Shown in pieces: positions 1 through 7,270 of a stretch of 7,270 nucleotides of DNA; position 1 is the first letter of the stretch, and every line of letters starts with the position of its first letter. The notes under the pieces were generated by a model that did no database searches, was not told the origin of the DNA, and saw only the letters and a program-made list of their open reading frames with translations. The translations under genes were made by a program, and so were the position numbers. This DNA is from a virus (taxonomy: Duplodnaviria > Heunggongvirae > Uroviricota > Caudoviricetes): IMG/VR virus record IMGVR_UViG_2778261535_000004, positions 1 to 7,270 of that record. One strand, written 5' to 3'.

Positions 1-49
1 TAACGGCTGGAAATCATTCAATACTCGCACTATCGGAAGTTCACCAGCC

Positions 50-90
50 AGCCGCAGTATTCTGCCATGACAAGTTGCTGCGGCTTTTTA
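50..90 (+). terminator. Weak candidate plus-strand intrinsic terminator (possibly for a convergent gene upstream of the window)
   Basis: Inverted repeat agccgcag (50-57) / ctgcggct (78-85) followed by ttttt (85-89). The loop is 20 nt, so the hairpin is weak. Confidence 0.25.
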
Positions 91-93
91 TGT

Positions 94-381
94 TTAACGG
101 ATAAACAGCCAGACCAGCAGACACGCCACCACCGGCACAGCAAAATCCATCAGGCTTGCTACATCCCACGCGCGTGGATCAAAACCGCCCCACCACGGCA
201 TATTCATGCGCTTGCCATGCCCGAACATTTCAATCCAGCGATATTCTGCCTGGGTGTGTTCACGCGCAATGAAGAACGTACAACCGGCTATCGCTCCGTA
301 AGCCCAGTTCCCGGTAAAAAGACCAATCAGTAGCTGCGCAGCCACAGCACAAAGAGCATGAAGGAAAGGTGTTATATCCAT
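94..381 (-). CDS. Hypothetical small membrane protein (95 aa, about three predicted hydrophobic helices)
   Basis: ATG at 381..379 preceded by a strong Shine-Dalgarno AGGAGG (plus 386-391), 13 nt after the stop of the preceding gene. Hydrophobic stretches FLHALCAVAAQLLIGLFTG, WAYGAIAGCTFFIA and VASLMDFAVPVVACLLVWLFI. Stop TAA at 96..94. Confidence 0.55.
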   Translation of the reverse strand: MDITPFLHALCAVAAQLLIGLFTGNWAYGAIAGCTFFIAREHTQAEYRWIEMFGHGKRMNMPWWGGFDPRAWDVASLMDFAVPVVACLLVWLFIR

Positions 382-385
382 TACT

Positions 386-391
386 CCTCCT
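386..391 (-). promoter_or_regulatory. Shine-Dalgarno sequence (AGGAGG) of the 95-aa membrane protein gene
   Basis: Minus strand reads TGA-TAAAGGAGGAGTA-ATG; a near-consensus ribosome-binding site a few nt upstream of the ATG. It supports the minus-strand ORF over the overlapping plus-strand ORF 67..333. Confidence 0.6.
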
Positions 392-394
392 TTA

Positions 395-1096
395 TCAGAT
401 ATCGCTTCGGGAAGTTGATAACAGCTTTAATTCTGACTCAATTTCATCAACTCTTTCAGTCAGTTTCTGGATATGGTGAATCAGTGGAACAACCAGACGT
501 TCGTACATTACACCTTCGGCAACAAGGCCATTGCTGGAAATAGCTTCCGGTGCATCATCTTCGTTAGCTGGTCGCCAGTGTACAAACTGAGGGGCAATTT
601 CTCCTACTTCCTCGGCAATCAATCCGTAGAATCCCCAGTCACGCCTGTCATTTTCGCATTGTGACCTGTACCACACAGGGCGCATCCTGAAAATGAGATC
701 AGCGTGCTCTGAATCTATTGTCTCTACTGAATGTTTATAGCGGATAGACGATGTTGACCGCAGCACAGACGAAATTGCAGGGTCAGGATTAAGATAAAGG
801 TTTGCCGCCGCTGTAGTCGTGGCCAAATTCCATAAATAAAACGCTTCACGACCTGTCAGTGGATAAAAATCTCCGCCATAACGACCACTTTCCAGATCGT
901 TCACTTCCACTTTGTTTTTCAGCTTATTATCAACTTCAGTTTTTGTGTATCTGGTGCTGATATCCTGCTTTGCACTGGTCATATCAGTCTGAAGCGTTGA
1001 TACTTTTCCGTTAATTGAGGAAATATCTTCCTTAGTTTTACTGACATCTCCCTTTAGCGTGGTGATATCTCCTGGAATTACTGTCGATGTAGCCAT
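395..1096 (-). CDS. Tail-fibre-domain protein with C-terminal peptidase S74-type intramolecular chaperone domain (233 aa)
   Basis: ATG at 1096..1094 with GAGGGAG 5 nt upstream. The C-terminal ~118 aa (from S-S-I-R-Y-K at aa 116-121, then DWGFYGLIAEEVGEIAPQFV...GLVAEGVMYERLVVPLIHHIQKLTERVDEIESEL) fit the pattern of the autoproteolytic chaperone domain of phage endosialidases and tail fibres (Ser-Lys dyad 5 residues apart, hydrophobic core, terminal coiled coil). The N-terminal ~115 aa are Ser/Thr/Lys-rich and fibre-like. Confidence 0.7.
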   Translation of the reverse strand: MATSTVIPGDITTLKGDVSKTKEDISSINGKVSTLQTDMTSAKQDISTRYTKTEVDNKLKNKVEVNDLESGRYGGDFYPLTGREAFYLWNLATTTAAANLYLNPDPAISSVLRSTSSIRYKHSVETIDSEHADLIFRMRPVWYRSQCENDRRDWGFYGLIAEEVGEIAPQFVHWRPANEDDAPEAISSNGLVAEGVMYERLVVPLIHHIQKLTERVDEIESELKLLSTSRSDI

Positions 1097-1105
1097 TTGT
1101 CTCCC

Positions 1106-1387
1106 TCACATCCAGCCACGAAGTTGATGCTCAACAACAACCGCGTATTTATCGAATATTGACGATTTTTTTGCATCATTAATGATGCGCACGTTTACAA
1201 AATATCCGTCTTCCTTAACACATACCGGTTCGCCATCTTCAGTCAGTTCTCCGGTTTCTTTGTACACGTTACCTATCACGTCAATAAGAATATCATCCTG
1301 CATCGTCTCGTCGTCATAATAGCCAGTGCTATCCATAAAGGCCGAAAAGTCGGCCCTGTCGGCAAATTTGAGGGTTAAGTCTCGCAT
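1106..1387 (-). CDS. Hypothetical small acidic protein (93 aa), translationally coupled to the tail fibre gene
   Basis: ATG at 1387..1385 overlaps the fibre stop (TAATG, 1-nt overlap). Product is strongly acidic (about 20 D/E against 10 K/R). Stop TGA at 1108..1106 lies 9 nt before the next start. No family recognised from sequence alone. Confidence 0.6.
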   Translation of the reverse strand: MRDLTLKFADRADFSAFMDSTGYYDDETMQDDILIDVIGNVYKETGELTEDGEPVCVKEDGYFVNVRIINDAKKSSIFDKYAVVVEHQLRGWM

Positions 1388-3783
1388 TATATTTTTTCTC
1401 CCTGCTGCGCTGCTGTTAATTCCCTGTGCCAGATACGCAAATTTCGGACGTGCCCGAACAGATGGCGGCTGCCACTGGACGCCTTTCCACCGATAGTGAT
1501 GAATCCACCAGTGTACTTCTGATTTTGATATGCTGAAGTTGTCAATGCCCCGAAAACACCATTGACAACAACTTGCAACCTTCTGTCTTCCGAAAATAAA
1601 AAACCAACGATATTATGGCGCTTAGTTCTTGCAAGAGTACTATTATACTCTTTAATGGCATTTGAGTCGCCGTTTGTGATTATCGCTTTATTACCACGAG
1701 TAGCAAAACCAAGGTACATATAACTTTGATTTATTATATCTGTGGAATCTCCCGTTGTTGTTATATCCAGAATCCTTGCTCCACCAGTAATATTAGGCAT
1801 AAAGCCAGGTTCCCATAGTGTATTTACTTCAACAAGACAACTTATTGCAGGAGTTGACCAGTTTAATTTTACAGGGACAGTAACCATATCACTGGCTCTT
1901 GTTGCACCAGTTCCCGACGTAATGATAAATGATGACGCATGAGTTCCCTTTTCAAACTGAGGGGTGGTCATCATTATCTGGTCTCCGGCCTGTATGGAGC
2001 GCCCGTCCGCAGCTATCTCAAAACGAGCGTGAATACTTTTCGGTTCTGGTGATTTATATGTAAATTCGATGCGTAACCATCCGTTAGCTTCTCTGTATAT
2101 GACATGATTGACAGCATCCTCACCATTCGGAATTTTTAATATTTCTCCGGTGCCGCAATCTATATATGACTCAGCAACCAGTGTGTTGCTTGTTCCGTCA
2201 TCGTTCACATAAGCTACGCGAGGTCTGATTAATATATCAGTCCCTTTAACACGGCACGAAAGTGTAACTGATTCATTTGCATCAACACTGATTACACGGG
2301 GATAACCACTCGTAATTAATGTCGCCCGGCCATCCAACGGAGTTCCCGTAACCGTGAATGTTCCATATGTAAACCCATACCCGTCAGTTTCACTAGTCAC
2401 CGATAATGCAGATTTCAGATAATTCCATAAGGATGGTGTATTACTATAATAAAGTGTGTTTGTTCTCTGCCCCTCTATTAACAACCCCATTTTTTCAAAT
2501 CTGGGTTCATCTACAGACGCAATACAAAGCCCCCCGGATTTATCAATATATGTCGCTTCAGATGCCCGCTTAAACTTAACAATCTTGTCGCCAGGCATTA
2601 TTATTTCATCATCACCAATAACAATCTTTTTATATGATGGCGAAAAGCCCGTAATCATATCCAGTGAATCGTTAAACGGTATCCACACATCAGGCAGCGG
2701 TTGTAAGACATATTTATACGGCTCTGCTGCCTGGCTTGCATACTCTCTGGCTGCATCTTCACTTGCTTTAGCTGCCGTCTGGCTTGCTGCCGATGCTTTC
2801 GCTGAGTTCGCAGCCGCTGTTTCGCTCACCTTTGCGTTGGTTTCACTGGTTTTTGCTGCTTTTTGGCTGTTGGCTGATGCAGTGGCAGAAGCAGCCGCCG
2901 CGCTTGCAGAACCAGCTGCGGCATTCTCGCTTTGGGCTGCTGCATCCTGACTGTTTTTCGCCGCAGTTTCGCTGGCTTTGGCATTCGTTTCGCTGGTCTT
3001 CGCTGCCGTCTGGCTGGACTTTGCGTTAGTTTCACTCGTCTTCGCAGCTTTCTGGCTGTTAGCCGCGGCAGTTGCTGATCCAGCTGCTGAAGTCGCAGAA
3101 CCAGCTGCGGCACTCTCGCTTTCAGCTGCTGCATCCTGACTGCTTTTCGCCGCAGTTTCACTGGCTTTGGCATTCGTTTCGCTGGTTTTCGCTGCCGTCT
3201 GGCTGGACTTTGCGTTGGTTTCGCTCGTCTTTGCGGCTGTCTCGCTATTTTTCGCGTTGGTTTCTGATTTTTTGGCTGCTGTCGCGGAGTTTGCCGATGC
3301 AGTCTTTGAGGTCGCTGCCGCCTGTGCACTATTAGCTGCATTCGTTTCTGAGGTTTTCGCCGCGTTCTTTGATGATGCCGCTGCAGTTTCGGATTTCTTT
3401 GCCGCCGCTGCGCTCTGAGAGGCGGCTTCGGCGTTGCGTGCCACTTCTTCCACCATTGCCTCAAAACGACGCAATGCCTCCGGCATGACATCATCTTCCG
3501 TCATGGCACCGAGAAAATCATTCAGCGTACCTGGTCTGGAGCCTTCATAGACGGTAATGGTCCCGGCATGTGAAGGCGGAAAACCTTCAACCAGCAGGGT
3601 GACGCTGTACTGGCCATACTCAACATCCATGCTGTAACGTCCGGCTTCATCCGGATTTTCAGAAGCCACCGTGTTCACCAGTACCGTGGTGCTGTTACGC
3701 TTTGCCTTCAGTTGAATAGTGCAGTTCTGTATTGGTTTTCCCGCACCATCTTTCAGCACACCTGAGATTTTTACTGCTGCCAT
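1387..3783 (-). CDS. stf: Side tail fibre protein, mosaic: lambda-Stf-like N-terminal domain, Ala/Ser/Thr repeat shaft, non-lambda distal domain ending in a LamG-like jellyroll motif (~798 aa from the ATG)
   Basis: ORF 1387..3789 starts with GTG-GAT-ATG; the ATG at 3783..3781 has GGAG about 5 nt upstream and is the likelier start, giving MAAVKISGVLKDGAGKPIQNCTIQLKAKRNSTTV..., which resembles the lambda Stf N-terminus. Residues ~121-347 are AAKTSETNAK-type repeats. The C-terminus ends ...GGFITIGGKASSGSRHLFGHVRNLRIWHRELTAAQ, matching the conserved last strand of LamG-like/concanavalin-A-like domains (F-G-x-I/V-D/R-x-V/L-R-I-Y/W-x-R-x-L-T/S-x-x-E/Q). Stop TAA at 1389..1387. Confidence 0.85.
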   Translation of the reverse strand: MAAVKISGVLKDGAGKPIQNCTIQLKAKRNSTTVLVNTVASENPDEAGRYSMDVEYGQYSVTLLVEGFPPSHAGTITVYEGSRPGTLNDFLGAMTEDDVMPEALRRFEAMVEEVARNAEAASQSAAAAKKSETAAASSKNAAKTSETNAANSAQAAATSKTASANSATAAKKSETNAKNSETAAKTSETNAKSSQTAAKTSETNAKASETAAKSSQDAAAESESAAAGSATSAAGSATAAANSQKAAKTSETNAKSSQTAAKTSETNAKASETAAKNSQDAAAQSENAAAGSASAAAASATASANSQKAAKTSETNAKVSETAAANSAKASAASQTAAKASEDAAREYASQAAEPYKYVLQPLPDVWIPFNDSLDMITGFSPSYKKIVIGDDEIIMPGDKIVKFKRASEATYIDKSGGLCIASVDEPRFEKMGLLIEGQRTNTLYYSNTPSLWNYLKSALSVTSETDGYGFTYGTFTVTGTPLDGRATLITSGYPRVISVDANESVTLSCRVKGTDILIRPRVAYVNDDGTSNTLVAESYIDCGTGEILKIPNGEDAVNHVIYREANGWLRIEFTYKSPEPKSIHARFEIAADGRSIQAGDQIMMTTPQFEKGTHASSFIITSGTGATRASDMVTVPVKLNWSTPAISCLVEVNTLWEPGFMPNITGGARILDITTTGDSTDIINQSYMYLGFATRGNKAIITNGDSNAIKEYNSTLARTKRHNIVGFLFSEDRRLQVVVNGVFGALTTSAYQNQKYTGGFITIGGKASSGSRHLFGHVRNLRIWHRELTAAQQGEKI
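2749..3429 (-). repeat. In-frame low-complexity Ala/Ser/Thr-rich repeat region of the tail fibre shaft (about aa 121-347)
   Basis: Translation is dominated by reiterated AAKTSETNAK / SQTAAKTSETNAKASETAAK motifs; the DNA is reiterated GCN/ACN/TCN-rich sequence. It ends at ...KASEDAAREY (about 2740-2757). Confidence 0.8.
2790..3270 (-). repeat. Tandem direct repeat with 189-bp (63-codon) period, about 2.5 copies, inside the fibre shaft
   Basis: Plus-strand block starting 'gcagaaccagctgcggcattctcgctttgggctgctgcatcctgactg...' at 2906 recurs at 3095 ('gcagaaccagctgcggcactctcgctttcagctgctgcatcctgactg...') with near-identity for ~150 bp; a partial further copy flanks it. Protein-level repeat NSQKAAKTSETNAKSSQTAAKTSETNAKASETAAK(S/N)SQDAAA(E/Q)SE(S/N)AAAGSA... 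Confidence 0.75.
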
Positions 3784-3794
3784 ATCCACTCCAC

Positions 3795-3847: not shown

Positions 3848-4447
3848 TCAGAATTTATAACCGACACCCACGATGAAACCGTCAGTGCGCCAGTCACCAC
3901 TGCCGGAGCCTTCATAAGCAATATCAATGGCCACGGATTCGGTCGGGTTAAACTGCACGCCAGCTCCCCACGCCAGAGACGTGTTGCTGTGGCGACCGTC
4001 ATCACTTCCGGTCAGCACATCGTGCGTTTTCCCCTTATTGTCAGTTACGCGGAGATAATCCCCGGAAAAAGTCGACACACGGCTGTAAGCCATACCCGCC
4101 ATCGCATACGCGCTGAACCATTCATTCACGCGCACAGACGGCCCCACCATCACGCTGAACCAGCGGTTACGCACGGAATCTTCATGCCAGCGGGTATTGC
4201 TGTAACGGGTAAGCTGGCGATTCTTGTCTCCTGCATAGCTGAATGACGTCACCAGCCCCAGTGTGTCCGTAAATTCATAACGGTATTTCACGTTAATGCC
4301 CTTCAGGTCATCGTTGCCGGGCATATCAGTATGGGACTGAAGATAGCCGCCGCTTAGTGTGGACTGATGCTCTGCTGCACTCGCTGGCGTACCAGCGGCG
4401 GCCAGCCAGACTACTGCAGACAGAATAACAGCACATAATTTACGCAT
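3848..4447 (-). CDS. lom: Lom outer membrane beta-barrel protein (Ail/Lom/PagC/Rck family), 199 aa
   Basis: ATG at 4447..4445 preceded by GAGAGG; N-terminal signal peptide ([28 protein letters not shown]); ends in aromatic residues (...[10 protein letters not shown]) typical of outer-membrane barrels; recognisably lambda-Lom-like ([32 protein letters not shown]...). Position J-lom-stf as in lambda. Confidence 0.9.
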
Positions 4448-4516: not shown

Positions 4517-7270
4517 TCAACGGATACTGATACCGGAAGCAGCTTTTTTGGTCACAATCACCGTACAGTCTGTGATGTTACCTGCGCCCTGATTGCCTTT
4601 CTGGAAAATCTTAAACTCCAGAGTGACGCTACCACCACCACTCGGCATATCAATAACCGCACTGTAACTACCGGGAATGGCTCCTTTAGTTTCTCTGGAT
4701 GCGATTAATACGCCATTTTTGCGAACTTCAAAACCATAACCCGTGTATCGCGTACCTCCCGGGTTATTACCGCTCCCCGGATCGTCATACGCCACACCGT
4801 TAAAAATAATGGGCGGAATAATAATCTGGCGGTCAAAGTTATGATCATCGTAAATGGTGACTGTAACCGTCCCGTTTGGTGTTTCCGTGTTACCCCACGT
4901 ACCAGCCTTTTTCGGAAATGGTTTGGATACAGTTTTAACGAAGTCACCTCTGACCTGGTTCGCCTCCAGCATGCCCTTAATCGTACAGTTTTCATTTACC
5001 GTGACGTTGTTGAGCGTCCCGGAGTTCGCATTCACGTTACCGCTGATATCGGCATTTTTCGCCGTCAGCCGCCCGTCCGGTGTCAGGGAAAATGCCGGAG
5101 GATTACCGCCGCTGGTAATGGTGGGAGCCGTCAGATACTTCAGGAACACTTCGTTCATGAATATCTGGTTGCCCTGCGCCACAAACATCGGCGTTTCATT
5201 CCCGTTTGCCGGGTCAATAAACGCGATACGGTTAGCGGCAACCAGGAACTGGCTCAGTTTGCCTTCCTCCGTATCCTCCATGCTGAGGCCAAGCCCCGCG
5301 ACATAATGCCTGCCGTCTTCGGTCTGCTCAATTTTGACGCCCCACATGGCATTCCATTTATCGTTGGCGTCTTTCCACTCTTTCGAAAACTCCTCCAGTT
5401 TGCTGGCGTTATCCTCCGTCAGCTCGACTTTTTCCAGCAGCTCCTTGCCGAGATGGGATTCGGTTATCTGGCCTTTGAAAAAATCCAGGTAACCTTCCGC
5501 ATCATCGCTCGCCCGACCGACAGCCTCCACGAATGCCGATTTGCCGACGGTGTTCACACTGCGAACGTAAAAATAATAATCATGGCCCGGTTTGATATTG
5601 ATACTGGCGGCTATCCAGTACAGCGCCGTGCCAAGATAGCGGGCTGTGGTTTCAACCTGCCTGATATCCGCAATCCGCTTTTCCGAGAACCAGAACTCAA
5701 ACTGTACAGTCGGATCATAAACCGCAAGATGCGGCGTGGCGGTTATCTGAAAATAGCCCGGCGTCAGCTCAATCCGCGATGGCGCTGCCGGTGCGGCAAT
5801 CCGGAACGATACCGACGCCGGATCGCCCTGCTGCCCCCACGCATTTACCGCCCGGACTGTCAGACTGTAATTTCCCAGAGCCAGCTGCCTGAAGCGGTAT
5901 GTGGTTTCCGTCGTCCGGGCCGTGCTGACCAGCCGCTCACTGCCGTCATCCGCTGCCACGGTCAGGCGAAGCATAAAGCTCACGCCCTTCACCACCTTCG
6001 GCGTATCCCAGCGCGCCAGTACCTGGTATTCCCCGCTGTCTGCGGTGACTTCTGCGGTCAGGTGCTGCACTGCTGGCGGCGTGACACCATTCACCGTGCC
6101 GCTCTGGTCGCCGTCAAAGTGCGCCCCGTTATCCACAATGGCTTCTTTTTCCGGTACATGCTGCACGGCAGTGATGGCATACGTGCCGTCGTCGTTCTCA
6201 CGGATACTCACACAGCGGAACAGGCGCTGGCGCAGCGTCGGCAGCTTCAGCCCCCACACGCTGTATTCAGCAACGCCGTCAGGAACACGGCTCACTTTCA
6301 CCTTCACGCCGTCGGTGACGGACTGGACCTCCACGCTGACCGGATTCCCCTGTCCGTCAACCAGGCTTATCAGCGTGGTGCCGGAGGATGGCAGCGTGAT
6401 TTCACGGTCGAGCGTCAGTGTCCGCGTCTGGCTGTTCACCGCCAGCACGCGCCCGCCGATGCTGATACCCGCATAGTCATCATCACAGATTTCAATGACA
6501 TCGCCCGGTACATGGCGAAGCCCTTCTGCACCCACGCTGAAGTCCACGGTCTGCGTTTCCAGCAGCTCCGTTTTAATCAGCCACAGCCCGGCGCGGTGTG
6601 CCTGCCCCCGGCTGGTACAGCCAAAGGCATCCATCTTCGTGACGTTACGACCGTAACGGAGAATGGCCTGCGTATCTTCAACAAGCTCTGTCGCCGTCTC
6701 CCAGCCGTTATTCGGGTCAATCCAGTTCACCTCAACGGCATTATGGCGGTCCTTCAGGGCGCTGAAGCTGTAGCGGAACGGCGCGCCATCATCCGGCATC
6801 ACCACATTACTGCGGTTATAGGTCCACACCTTATCCGACGGTCGGTCCTGCACGAACGTCAGCGTCTGCCCGTTCCATACCGGCATACAGCGCATCGCCG
6901 AGCAGAAATCACTGAGAACATCCCACGCCTTACGCTGTGTGGTCAGGTAGGCATTACAGGTGATGCGCGGCTCCGTGCCACCAAAGCCATCCGGCACCGA
7001 CTGGTCGCAATTCTGGCCGATGACATACAGCGCCCATTTGTCCACATCCGCCGCACCGAGACGCTTCCCCATGCCGTAGCGCGGATGGGTCAGCATATCC
7101 CACAGACACCAGGCCATGTTGTTGCTGTATGCCGGTTTAAACGTCCCGTCCCAGATACCGCTGTATTGCCGCGTCTGCGGGTTATAGTTCGACGGCACCT
7201 GCAGAATGCGCCCGCGAAGATGATAATTACGGCTCACCTGCTGGCTGCCGAACTGCTCCGAATCCACCTG
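4517..7270 (-). CDS. J: Host specificity protein J (tail tip / central tail fibre), C-terminal 916 aa; 5' end lies beyond the window
   Basis: Long minus-strand ORF open to the window edge, stop TGA at 4519..4517. Translation ([45 protein letters not shown]... [17 protein letters not shown]...) is recognisable as lambda gpJ over most of its length; the last ~150 aa are more divergent. Position immediately upstream of lom matches the lambda order J-lom-stf. Confidence 0.9.

What the first reader, a model, noticed from the sequence alone, without database searches (positions are those of the whole stretch)
395..1096. Stand-alone short protein carrying a peptidase-S74 intramolecular chaperone domain downstream of the fibre
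S74-type self-cleaving chaperone domains normally sit at the C-terminus of long tail fibres or tailspikes. Here one sits on a 233-aa protein whose mature part would be only ~115 aa, a short Ser/Thr/Lys-rich fibre-like segment. This could be a second, miniature fibre, or the remnant of a swapped-out fibre gene that kept its own start and ribosome-binding site. Either way it marks past or ongoing exchange of receptor-binding modules at this locus.
Basis: partly seen in the sequence, partly recalled or inferred. Interest (0 to 1): 0.6.

Follow-up and report, generated by a model that had tools for sequence, protein, structure and literature searches.

The report
Miniature second subunit of side tail fibre
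A 233-residue prophage protein with a self-cleaving folding domain is a conserved, selected gene, most likely the smallest known form of a second subunit that plugs onto the phage's side tail fibre; it is not a leftover of a swapped-out fibre gene.

Summary
Window 395-1096 (minus strand) encodes a 233-aa protein with a Peptidase_S74 domain above Pfam's cut-off. Ser116 and Lys121 are invariant in 25 homologues.

The "remnant" reading is rejected:
- All 86 lambdoid copies examined are intact.
- dN/dS is 0.16, and it is low in both halves of the protein.
- Stand-alone homologues of 225-235 aa occur in virulent T1-like phages.

The gene is the third member of a cassette: a fibre with a lectin-like C-terminal domain, then a ~92-aa protein (p93), then a protein with an invariant N-terminus (M-x-T-x-T-x-IP-x-DI-x-x-LK) and a C-terminal S74 domain. 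I found this cassette in lambdoid, Drexlerviridae, Queuovirinae and T5-like phages. It includes IrisVonRoten Gp24, published as a distal fibre attached to a proximal fibre.

In E. coli prophages the third gene is a 234-aa allele, a 346-aa allele, or absent (phage 21). It is conserved (93-99%), while the neighbouring Stf C-domain is hypervariable (33-61%).

Best reading (inferred, untested): a minimal distal fibre subunit, about 115 aa after cleavage, that docks through its N-terminus. It is a variant of a known kind and of moderate interest.

The parts
395..1096 (-). ORF233: stand-alone protein with N-terminal anchor, coiled coil, short tip and S74 chaperone domain (stop codon at 395-397)
   Evidence: ORF list; Pfam S74 hit; 86 intact homologues; dN/dS 0.16
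1052..1096 (-). Codons 1-15: N-terminal motif M-x-T-x-T-x-I-P-x-D-I-x-x-L-K, the presumed docking peptide
   Evidence: M1, T3, T5, I7, P8, D10, I11, L14 and K15 are invariant across third-gene proteins of lambdoid, Drexlerviridae, Seuratvirus and Tequintavirus phages, including IrisVonRoten Gp24. The docking role is inferred.
917..1066 (-). Codons 11-60: predicted alpha-helical heptad coiled-coil stalk
   Evidence: AF2 helices 11-47 and 52-60, at low confidence; hydrophobic a/d spacing at 11, 14, 18, 25, 28, 32, 35, 39, 46, 55, 59; length varies by in-frame repeat indels among homologues
752..901 (-). Codons 66-115: short conserved tip that precedes the cleavage site
   Evidence: Conserved in stand-alone and long-fibre homologues; dN/dS 0.13; three short strands predicted at low confidence
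734..754 (-). Thr115-Ser116 predicted scissile bond and Lys121 (T-S-S-I-R-Y-K)
   Evidence: S116 and K121 invariant; same T-S-x4-K spacing as T5 pb1 Thr1263-Ser1264...Lys1269 (PMC4690869). Cleavage itself is not shown.
398..751 (-). Codons 116-233: intramolecular chaperone (Peptidase_S74) domain with a C-terminal helix
   Evidence: Pfam PF13884 on residues 116-172; C-terminal helix 198-232 with pLDDT 70-84; dN/dS 0.12
1101..1107 (-). Shine-Dalgarno GAGGGAG for ORF233, overlapping the TGA stop (1106-1108) of the 93-aa ORF
   Evidence: Read from the sequence; a 9-nt spacer is kept in seven of the eight phage contexts compared
1106..1387 (-). p93: 93-aa protein (phrog_1361, unknown function), always directly upstream of third-gene proteins
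   Evidence: PHROG hit; 52% identical to the KarlJaspers homologue; 118 of 118 loci carrying the anchor motif have p93 directly upstream; found in 181 phage records
1387..3789 (-). Stf: 800-aa side tail fibre. N-terminal phage_tail_N domain, Ala/Ser/Thr-rich repeat shaft, and a C-terminal GTA-spike-fibre / lectin-like domain (residues ~361-800, nt ~1390-2709) that is hypervariable between loci
   Evidence: Pfam and NCBIfam hits; 40% identity to the KarlJaspers lateral fibre over residues 265-800; 33-61% identity between lambdoid loci; Laminin_G_3-type matches, below Pfam's cut-off, in two homologues
94..381 (-). p95: 95-aa predicted membrane protein (phrog_1443), last gene of the operon, with an AAGGAGG ribosome-binding site 13 nt after the ORF233 stop
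   Evidence: lies downstream of both third-gene alleles; annotated as a putative membrane protein in phage 21
3800..3821 (-). Terminator-like hairpin after lom. No terminator-like site is found between stf and p95.

Best explanation
ORF233 is the third gene of a four-gene late operon (stf, p93, ORF233, p95). It most likely encodes a minimal distal subunit of a two-part side tail fibre.

Proposed mechanism:
1. It is translated by coupling to p93.
2. Three chains come together through the C-terminal S74 intramolecular chaperone domain.
3. That domain nucleates folding of the short tip (residues 66-115) and zips up the heptad coiled coil (residues 11-60).
4. The Ser116/Lys121 dyad then cuts the Thr115-Ser116 bond and releases the 13.7-kDa chaperone.
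5. The remaining trimer of 12.5-kDa chains docks through its invariant N-terminal peptide onto the distal end of the Stf fibre (its conserved C-terminal parts, or p93). This adds a small, conserved tip or cap beside the hypervariable lectin-like Stf domains.

What is shown: the domain, the dyad, purifying selection, the cassette synteny across phage families, and the shared N-terminus with larger distal fibres.

What is inferred: trimerisation, cleavage, docking, presence in the virion, and what the tip binds.
For: - Domain and dyad: S74 domain above Pfam's cut-off. S116 and K121 are invariant, with the same T-S-x4-K geometry as T5 pb1.
- Selection: 86 of 86 copies intact. dN/dS is 0.16 overall, 0.20 for the mature part and 0.12 for the chaperone part.
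- Cassette across phage families: the order fibre, ~92-aa protein, S74 protein occurs in KarlJaspers and SECphi27 (Drexlerviridae), KurtStettler (Seuratvirus), ESCO3 (Nonagvirus), HMD-P4 and IrisVonRoten (Tequintavirus), and lambdoid 2G7b. All three proteins are homologous between the window and KarlJaspers.
- Shared N-terminus: nine of the first 15 residues are invariant in seven third-gene proteins of 225-574 aa. All seven have an S74 domain.
- Published model: the 574-aa member, IrisVonRoten Gp24, is modelled by AlphaFold-Multimer as a T-shaped fibre attached to the proximal fibre Gp22 (PMC11990801).
- Linkage to p93: 118 of 118 loci with the anchor motif have p93 ending 9-12 nt upstream.
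- The tip is a real fibre end: the same tip plus chaperone module ends single-chain lambdoid Stf proteins P0063 and P0064.
- Operon structure: no terminator inside the operon.
Against: - The mature part has no domain large enough to be an obvious receptor-binding domain. Only about 50 residues lie between the coiled coil and the cleavage site.
- The protein is uniformly conserved (median pairwise identity 0.96) next to a hypervariable Stf C-domain. That is unlike a specificity determinant.
- Phage 21, Perceval and ev243 have the same kind of Stf and p93 but no third gene, so it is dispensable for that fibre type. Their Stf C-domains show no feature that separates them from fibres that have a third gene.
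- I found no virion proteomics, structure or mutant data for any stand-alone member.
- Monomer AF2 models were poor (pLDDT 54), and no multimer model could be run.
Confidence: 0.55

Rival explanations
1. Trans-acting assembly factor. The protein is not part of the virion. It helps Stf or the lateral fibre to fold or trimerise, as the BASEL annotation 'putative lateral tail fiber chaperone' implies, and is then discarded.
For: - It occupies the place that Tfa occupies after stf in lambda (established knowledge).
- It is annotated as a chaperone in KarlJaspers, PeterMerian, KurtStettler and HMD-P4.
- It is highly conserved while the Stf C-domain varies, as expected of a general helper.
- Its mature part is very small.
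Against: - S74 domains act in cis on the chain they belong to and are cut off afterwards (PMC4690869).
- The same N-terminus heads proteins of 333-574 aa with real fibre or receptor-binding parts.
- Phage 21-type phages keep Stf and p93 without it. p93 always accompanies this fibre type, so it is the better chaperone candidate.
- No match to Tfa-type families.
Confidence: 0.22
2. Non-functional remnant. It is the 3' end of an older single-chain Stf gene, left behind when a new receptor-binding module plus p93 was inserted, and it persists only by linkage.
For: - Residues ~37-233 are 51-58% identical to the C-termini of long fibres, including lambdoid Stf proteins with phage_tail_N at the N-terminus.
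- phrog_3299 aligns the whole protein to the end of a 1385-position profile.
- Occasional truncated copies exist (1 of about 57 of this allele).
Against: - 86 of 86 copies intact with the ATG kept.
- dN/dS 0.16, with both halves constrained.
- The stand-alone form is conserved at 57-60% identity in virulent phages with compact genomes.
- The N-terminal motif is conserved across four phage lineages.
- Strong coupled ribosome-binding site.
Confidence: 0.04
3. Lysogen-expressed accessory gene (a moron) with a role in the host cell rather than in the virion, like the neighbouring lom and the small membrane protein p95.
For: It lies at the right end of the late region next to lom, p95, a DinI-like gene and the integrase, where morons accumulate.
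Against: - No own promoter or terminator signal above background.
- Translationally coupled to fibre genes.
- Present in strictly virulent phages inside their fibre loci.
- No hit to defence-system families.
Confidence: 0.04

Closest known systems
IrisVonRoten (Bas32, Tequintavirus) Gp24, the 'T-shaped' distal lateral tail fibre (Humolli et al. 2025, PMC11990801)
   Same: - Same gene position: third gene after a fibre with a lectin-like C-terminal domain and a ~92-aa protein.
- Same invariant N-terminal 15-residue motif.
- C-terminal S74 chaperone domain.
- Published AlphaFold-Multimer model places it on the end of the proximal fibre.
   Different: - Gp24 is 574 aa with two predicted receptor-binding domains between the N-terminus and the chaperone domain. 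ORF233 has only a coiled coil and about 50 residues there.
- Apart from the N-terminus and the S74 domain the sequences do not align (23% identity overall).
Drexlerviridae 'putative lateral tail fiber chaperone' / 'chaperone of endosialidase' proteins (KarlJaspers bas06_0035, SECphi27 gp79, PeterMerian, JK16)
   Same: - Full-length homologues, 225-235 aa, 57-60% identical over residues 1-223.
- Same three-gene cassette.
- Same dyad.
   Different: - They are in virulent T1-like phages, next to the primase and recombination genes, not in a lambdoid late operon.
- No p95 downstream.
- The function in the annotation is a guess, not a test.
T5 pb1 (L-shaped tail fibre) and K1F endosialidase C-terminal intramolecular chaperone domains (Peptidase S74)
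   Same: - Same Pfam family.
- Same Thr-Ser...Lys cleavage motif and spacing.
- C-terminal helix as in the trimeric coiled-coil core described for pb1.
   Different: - In those proteins the domain ends a fibre or spike of about 1000 residues or more with a large receptor-binding or enzymatic part.
- No PDB chain is detectable by sequence or profile search.
DT57C LtfA/LtfB branched lateral tail fibre (Golomidova 2016, PMC4728585; Ayala 2023, PMC10713586)
   Same: Works alike in principle: a second fibre protein with its own S74 domain attaches through its N-terminus to the first fibre protein, not to the tail.
   Different: - The docking system differs. The LtfB N-terminus resembles phiEco32 gp15, not the motif found here.
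- No ~92-aa gene is described between ltfA and ltfB.
- LtfB is a full-size receptor-binding fibre with a shown host-range role.
Lambda Tfa / Mu gpU-type tail fibre assembly proteins
   Same: A small gene after stf in lambdoid phages; needed for fibre maturation (established knowledge).
   Different: - No sequence match.
- Tfa proteins are separate chaperones without a protease dyad.
- Here the chaperone domain is part of the protein it folds.

Membership tests
Peptidase S74 / intramolecular chaperone domain (PF13884) | Profile match above the curated cut-off | tested here: met
   27.3 bits against 22, E = 4.6e-6; residues 116-172 match profile positions 1-57 of 58
Peptidase S74 / intramolecular chaperone domain (PF13884) | Catalytic Ser with Lys five residues downstream, at the start of the domain | tested here: met
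   S116 and K121 invariant in 25 sequences; T115-S116...K121 matches T5 pb1 T1263-S1264...K1269
Peptidase S74 / intramolecular chaperone domain (PF13884) | Located at the C-terminus, with a C-terminal helix for the trimeric coiled-coil core | tested here: met
   The domain runs to the C-terminus; helix 198-232 is predicted with pLDDT 70-84. The trimeric state itself is not testable here.
Peptidase S74 / intramolecular chaperone domain (PF13884) | Preceded by an intertwined trimeric beta structure whose folding it nucleates | tested here: inconclusive
   Only three short strands (86-88, 100-102, 111-113), at pLDDT below 50 in a monomer model.
Peptidase S74 / intramolecular chaperone domain (PF13884) | Autoproteolytic release after folding | not testable with these tools
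   Needs expression of wild type and of S116A and K121A mutants
Third-gene distal fibre proteins of the fibre, p93, S74-protein cassette (IrisVonRoten Gp24-like) | Invariant N-terminal motif M-x-T-x-T-x-I-P-x-D-I-x-x-L-K | tested here: met
   MATSTVIPGDITTLK; nine positions invariant in seven proteins from four phage lineages
Third-gene distal fibre proteins of the fibre, p93, S74-protein cassette (IrisVonRoten Gp24-like) | Gene directly downstream of a p93 homologue, which follows a fibre with the conserved lectin-like C-terminal domain | tested here: met
   Window layout; homology of all three genes to KarlJaspers; 118 of 118 loci
Third-gene distal fibre proteins of the fibre, p93, S74-protein cassette (IrisVonRoten Gp24-like) | One or more receptor-binding domains between the N-terminal anchor and the chaperone domain | tested here: not met
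   Only a coiled coil (11-60) and about 50 residues (66-115). No domain hit there except a coiled-coil-type match below cut-off. The region is uniformly conserved.
Third-gene distal fibre proteins of the fibre, p93, S74-protein cassette (IrisVonRoten Gp24-like) | Physical attachment to the proximal fibre in the virion | not testable with these tools
   For Gp24 itself this rests on AlphaFold-Multimer.
Tfa-type tail fibre assembly chaperones | Sequence match to a tail fibre assembly family | tested here: not met
   No such Pfam, NCBIfam or PHROG hit
Gene remnant / pseudogene | Relaxed selection, disrupted copies, no conservation outside close relatives | tested here: not met
   dN/dS 0.16; 86 of 86 copies intact; 57-60% identical full-length homologues in Drexlerviridae
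DT57C LtfB-type branch fibre | N-terminal ~45 residues similar to phiEco32 gp15 | not tested
   Known only from the paper. No sequence comparison was run. Treated as a functional analogue, not as the same family.

The most novel reading that the evidence does not exclude
The mini-protein is an intermolecular use of an intramolecular chaperone. Its S74 domain first builds a small trimeric coiled-coil plug. [quoted passage not shown] In this reading it acts as a permanent trimerisation cap that any of the hypervariable Stf C-domain alleles can use. That would explain why it carries no receptor-binding domain, why it stays 93-99% conserved beside a 33-61% variable partner, and why it spreads with the cassette between temperate and virulent siphophages.
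Probability: 0.15. Interest if true: 0.6.

Novelty: new variant of a known kind. Interest (0 to 1): 0.35.

Why it matters
Side and lateral tail fibres decide which strains a phage can adsorb to, and they are the parts engineers swap to retarget phages and lambda-based delivery particles.

This locus shows that a common Stf type has three gene products, not one. It is present in about 13% of complete E. coli genomes (720 of 5426). The variable lectin-like Stf domain travels with a conserved ~92-aa protein, and often with a small S74 protein that shares its N-terminus with full-size distal fibres.

Anyone transplanting such Stf modules should carry p93 and the third gene along. The invariant 15-residue N-terminus is a candidate universal plug for attaching other distal modules.

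The mini form is also a compact model (233 aa) for studying S74-driven trimer folding and cleavage.

Tried and rejected
1. mEp460 as the ancestral single-chain Stf. Its S74 end is unrelated to this protein (BLASTP E = 0.15).
2. AF2 monomer model of ORF233: pLDDT 54, so only the secondary structure was used. Foldseek of that model against the PDB gave no match with E below 2.
4. AF2 model of p93 from a shallow alignment: pLDDT 48, not used.
5. Profile search of the PDB by sequence: no hit, even at E = 10.
6. Genome-contig scan: only 4 loci, 3 of them short or contaminant contigs filed under unrelated taxa.
7. Stop-codon readthrough fusing p93 to ORF233. The two are in frame with a TGA stop in lambdoid copies, but the virulent phages use TAA and KarlJaspers is out of frame. 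The 9-nt spacer is better explained by translational coupling.
8. A feature of the Stf C-domain that separates phages with a third gene from those without: none seen.
9. Rfam, PADLOC and NCBIfam: no hits for ORF233, p93 or p95.
10. Literature searches for virion proteomics or mutants of the stand-alone family: nothing found.

Full report
**What is in the window.**
All genes lie on the minus strand and form the right end of a lambdoid late region:
- J, cut by the window edge (4517-7267)
- Lom (3848-4447)
- an 800-aa side tail fibre, Stf (1387-3789)
- a 93-aa ORF, p93 (1106-1387)
- the 233-aa ORF of the finding (395-1096)
- a 95-aa membrane protein, p95 (94-381)

Terminator-like hairpins follow J and lom, and none lies between stf and p95. 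The stf stop overlaps the p93 start by one base. The p93 TGA stop overlaps a GAGGGAG ribosome-binding site, 9 nt before the ORF233 ATG. An AAGGAGG site lies in the 13 nt between ORF233 and p95. So stf, p93, ORF233 and p95 look like one translationally coupled operon.

**Check of the observation.**
Pfam Peptidase_S74 matches residues 116-172 at 27.3 bits against a cut-off of 22. The local sequence is R113-S-T115-S116-S-I-R-Y-K121. S116 and K121 are invariant in an alignment of 25 short and long homologues. In T5 pb1 the Thr1263-Ser1264 bond is cut, with Lys1269 as partner (PMC4690869), and the spacing here is the same. By that analogy the mature part would be residues 1-115 (12.5 kDa). Residues 1-65 are 42% Ser+Thr+Lys with a heptad pattern.

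**Not a remnant.**
- I extracted 86 lambdoid copies: 80 IMG/VR loci, three phage genomes, one E. coli chromosome, two genome contigs, and the window itself. All are intact, start with ATG and are 227-241 aa long.
- Nei-Gojobori dN/dS over 52 distinct sequences is 0.16. It is 0.20 for codons 1-115 and 0.12 for codons 116-233.
- 720 of 5426 complete E. coli genomes hold at least 80% of window 1-1500.
- The exact protein is in NCBI as 'tail fiber domain-containing protein', in a 90%-identity cluster of 2928 sequences.
- tblastn finds full-length stand-alone homologues (57-60% identity over residues 1-223) in about 45 virulent Drexlerviridae genomes.

**The cassette.**
In KarlJaspers and SECphi27 the homologue follows a ~650-aa lateral tail fibre and a 92-aa protein. 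The fibre is 40% identical to Stf residues 265-800, and the 92-aa protein is 52% identical to p93.

The same order occurs in these phages:

| Phage | Group | Third-gene length |
|---|---|---|
| 2G7b | lambdoid | 345 aa |
| HMD-P4 | Tequintavirus | 333 aa |
| KurtStettler | Seuratvirus | 510 aa |
| ESCO3 | Nonagvirus | 351 aa |
| IrisVonRoten | Tequintavirus | 574 aa |

I scanned five of these third-gene proteins (all but ESCO3) and the KarlJaspers homologue against Pfam, and each has an S74 domain. An alignment of seven third-gene proteins (ESCO3 not included) shows M1, T3, T5, I7, P8, D10, I11, L14 and K15 invariant, although the middle parts are unrelated.

IrisVonRoten Gp24 is the 'T-shaped' fibre that Humolli et al. 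(2025) model as attached to the proximal fibre Gp22. Gp22 has a galectin-like domain protruding from its C-terminus. That description matches the Stf type found here.

**How tight the linkage is.**
- About 56 carry a 227-234-aa gene and about 42 a 345/346-aa gene. A few are truncated.
- All 118 loci with enough upstream DNA have a p93 homologue ending 9-12 nt before the ATG.
- These loci are mostly E. coli prophages and so are not independent. The independent support is the recurrence in four phage lineages.

The converse does not hold. Phage 21, Perceval and ev243 have Stf, p93 and p95 but no third gene. p93 occurs in 181 phage records, including Vequintavirinae. So p93 belongs to the fibre type, and the third gene is an optional addition that needs that context.

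**Who varies.**
Compared with the window, the Stf C-domain in the lambdoid loci is 33-61% identical, p93 is 84-99%, ORF233 is 93-99% and p95 is 88-100%. Stf C-domains are mosaics shared between temperate and virulent phages. The 234-aa allele is uniformly conserved, whereas the 346-aa allele has a more variable stretch at residues 41-100. Module exchange at this locus is therefore real. It concerns the Stf C-domain and the choice of third-gene allele, not decay of this gene.

**Origin of the module.**
Residues ~37-233 are 51-58% identical to the C-termini of long fibres. These include lambdoid Stf proteins with phage_tail_N at the N-terminus (P0063, 735 aa; P0064, 958 aa). ORF233 is thus the anchor peptide and coiled coil joined to a tip-plus-chaperone module that also ends single-chain fibres.

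**Mechanism.**
I commit to the minimal distal subunit model at confidence 0.55. In this model:
- S74-driven trimerisation comes first.
- The Thr115-Ser116 bond is then cut.
- The mature trimer docks through its N-terminus onto the Stf distal end or onto p93.

Trimerisation, cleavage, docking and presence in the virion are all inferred.

The main rival is a trans-acting chaperone that never enters the virion (0.22). It is weakened because S74 domains act in cis, because the same N-terminus heads full-size fibres, and because p93 is the better chaperone candidate. The remnant and moron readings each get about 0.04.

The weak points of my model are:
- There is no recognisable receptor-binding domain.
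- The protein is strongly conserved.
- It is dispensable in phage 21-type phages.
- No experimental data exist for it.

**Comparison with known systems.**
- It is a member of the S74 family. All features that could be tested are met.
- It belongs to the Gp24-like third-gene group by anchor, synteny and chaperone domain, but it fails the 'has a receptor-binding domain' feature. I therefore file it as a minimal variant.
- It works like DT57C LtfB, a second S74-bearing fibre attached to the first one. The docking sequence differs, according to the paper.
- It is unrelated to Tfa.

**Verdict.**
This is a real, functional gene, already annotated generically in thousands of genomes and never characterised. 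It is a new variant of a known kind and of moderate interest (0.35).

Noticed in passing
window 1106-1387 (-); L004 6720-6998; L094 5001-5279; L095 5001-5279: The 93-aa protein (phrog_1361, no Pfam family) accompanies every fibre with this lectin-like C-terminal domain. It occurs in 181 phage records spanning lambdoid, Drexlerviridae, Dhillonvirus, Queuovirinae, T5-like and Vequintavirinae phages, with or without a third gene. Its C-terminal L-R-x-W-(A/M) is conserved. Its function is unknown; it could be the fibre's chaperone or a joint protein.
   Followed up: partly
window ~1390-2709 (-), Stf residues ~361-800: The Stf C-terminal domain is hypervariable between otherwise near-identical prophage loci (33-61% identity). 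It is a mosaic. Long stretches are nearly identical between lambdoid 2G7b, Nonagvirus ESCO3, Seuratvirus KurtStettler and T5-like HMD-P4. Phage 21 combines a 2G7b-like first half with a KarlJaspers-like second half. This points to recent exchange between temperate and virulent phages.
   Followed up: partly
window 94-381 (-): A 95-aa predicted membrane protein (phrog_1443) ends the operon in lambdoid phages only. It follows either third-gene allele, or follows p93 directly in phage 21. dN/dS is 0.21. No defence-family or Pfam hit.
   Followed up: partly
window 1097-1108 (-); L011, L012, L013, L094, L100 junctions: The p93 stop and the third-gene ATG are separated by exactly 9 nt in seven of the eight phage contexts compared, which keeps the two ORFs in frame. 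The stop is TGA in lambdoid copies and TAA in virulent phages. KarlJaspers is out of frame. I read this as a constraint from translational coupling, not as readthrough.
   Followed up: yes
L013 6001-7533 (KurtStettler bas22_0024): This third-gene protein has its S74 domain at residues 208-259 but continues for about 250 more residues. The extension includes a Gly/Trp-rich stretch and a Cys-rich, Pro/Thr-rich C-terminal tail. That is unusual for a domain that normally ends the protein.
   Followed up: no
phage records (orkinos, ityhuna, JLBYU19, JLBYU10, AV105); IMG/VR loci L117, L124, L135, L192, L207, L212: In several Drexlerviridae genomes the homologue matches in two pieces and is annotated as two ORFs. 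About 8 of about 107 complete prophage third genes are truncated (90-323 aa). These may be occasional inactivation or sequencing frameshifts.
   Followed up: no
window 2830-3264: A 189-bp tandem duplication (2.2 copies, 85% match), with 42-bp and 21-bp sub-repeats, lies in the Ala/Ser/Thr-rich shaft of Stf. AT skew is strongly negative there. Repeat number differs between loci, so the shaft length varies.
   Followed up: no
L008, L009, L010: Near-identical copies of this E. coli prophage gene sit on short, low-coverage contigs filed under Collinsella, Corallococcus and Alkalicoccobacillus assemblies. These are most likely contamination or binning errors.
   Followed up: no
window 1-93; L003 2001-2057; L002 5980-6060: The left edge of the window matches the DNA that lies next to the DinI-like gene and integrase in mEp460 and in E. 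coli PEC41. There RefSeq annotates a small 'capsid protein' pseudogene fragment. The fibre operon therefore abuts the attachment and integrase end of the prophage.
   Followed up: no
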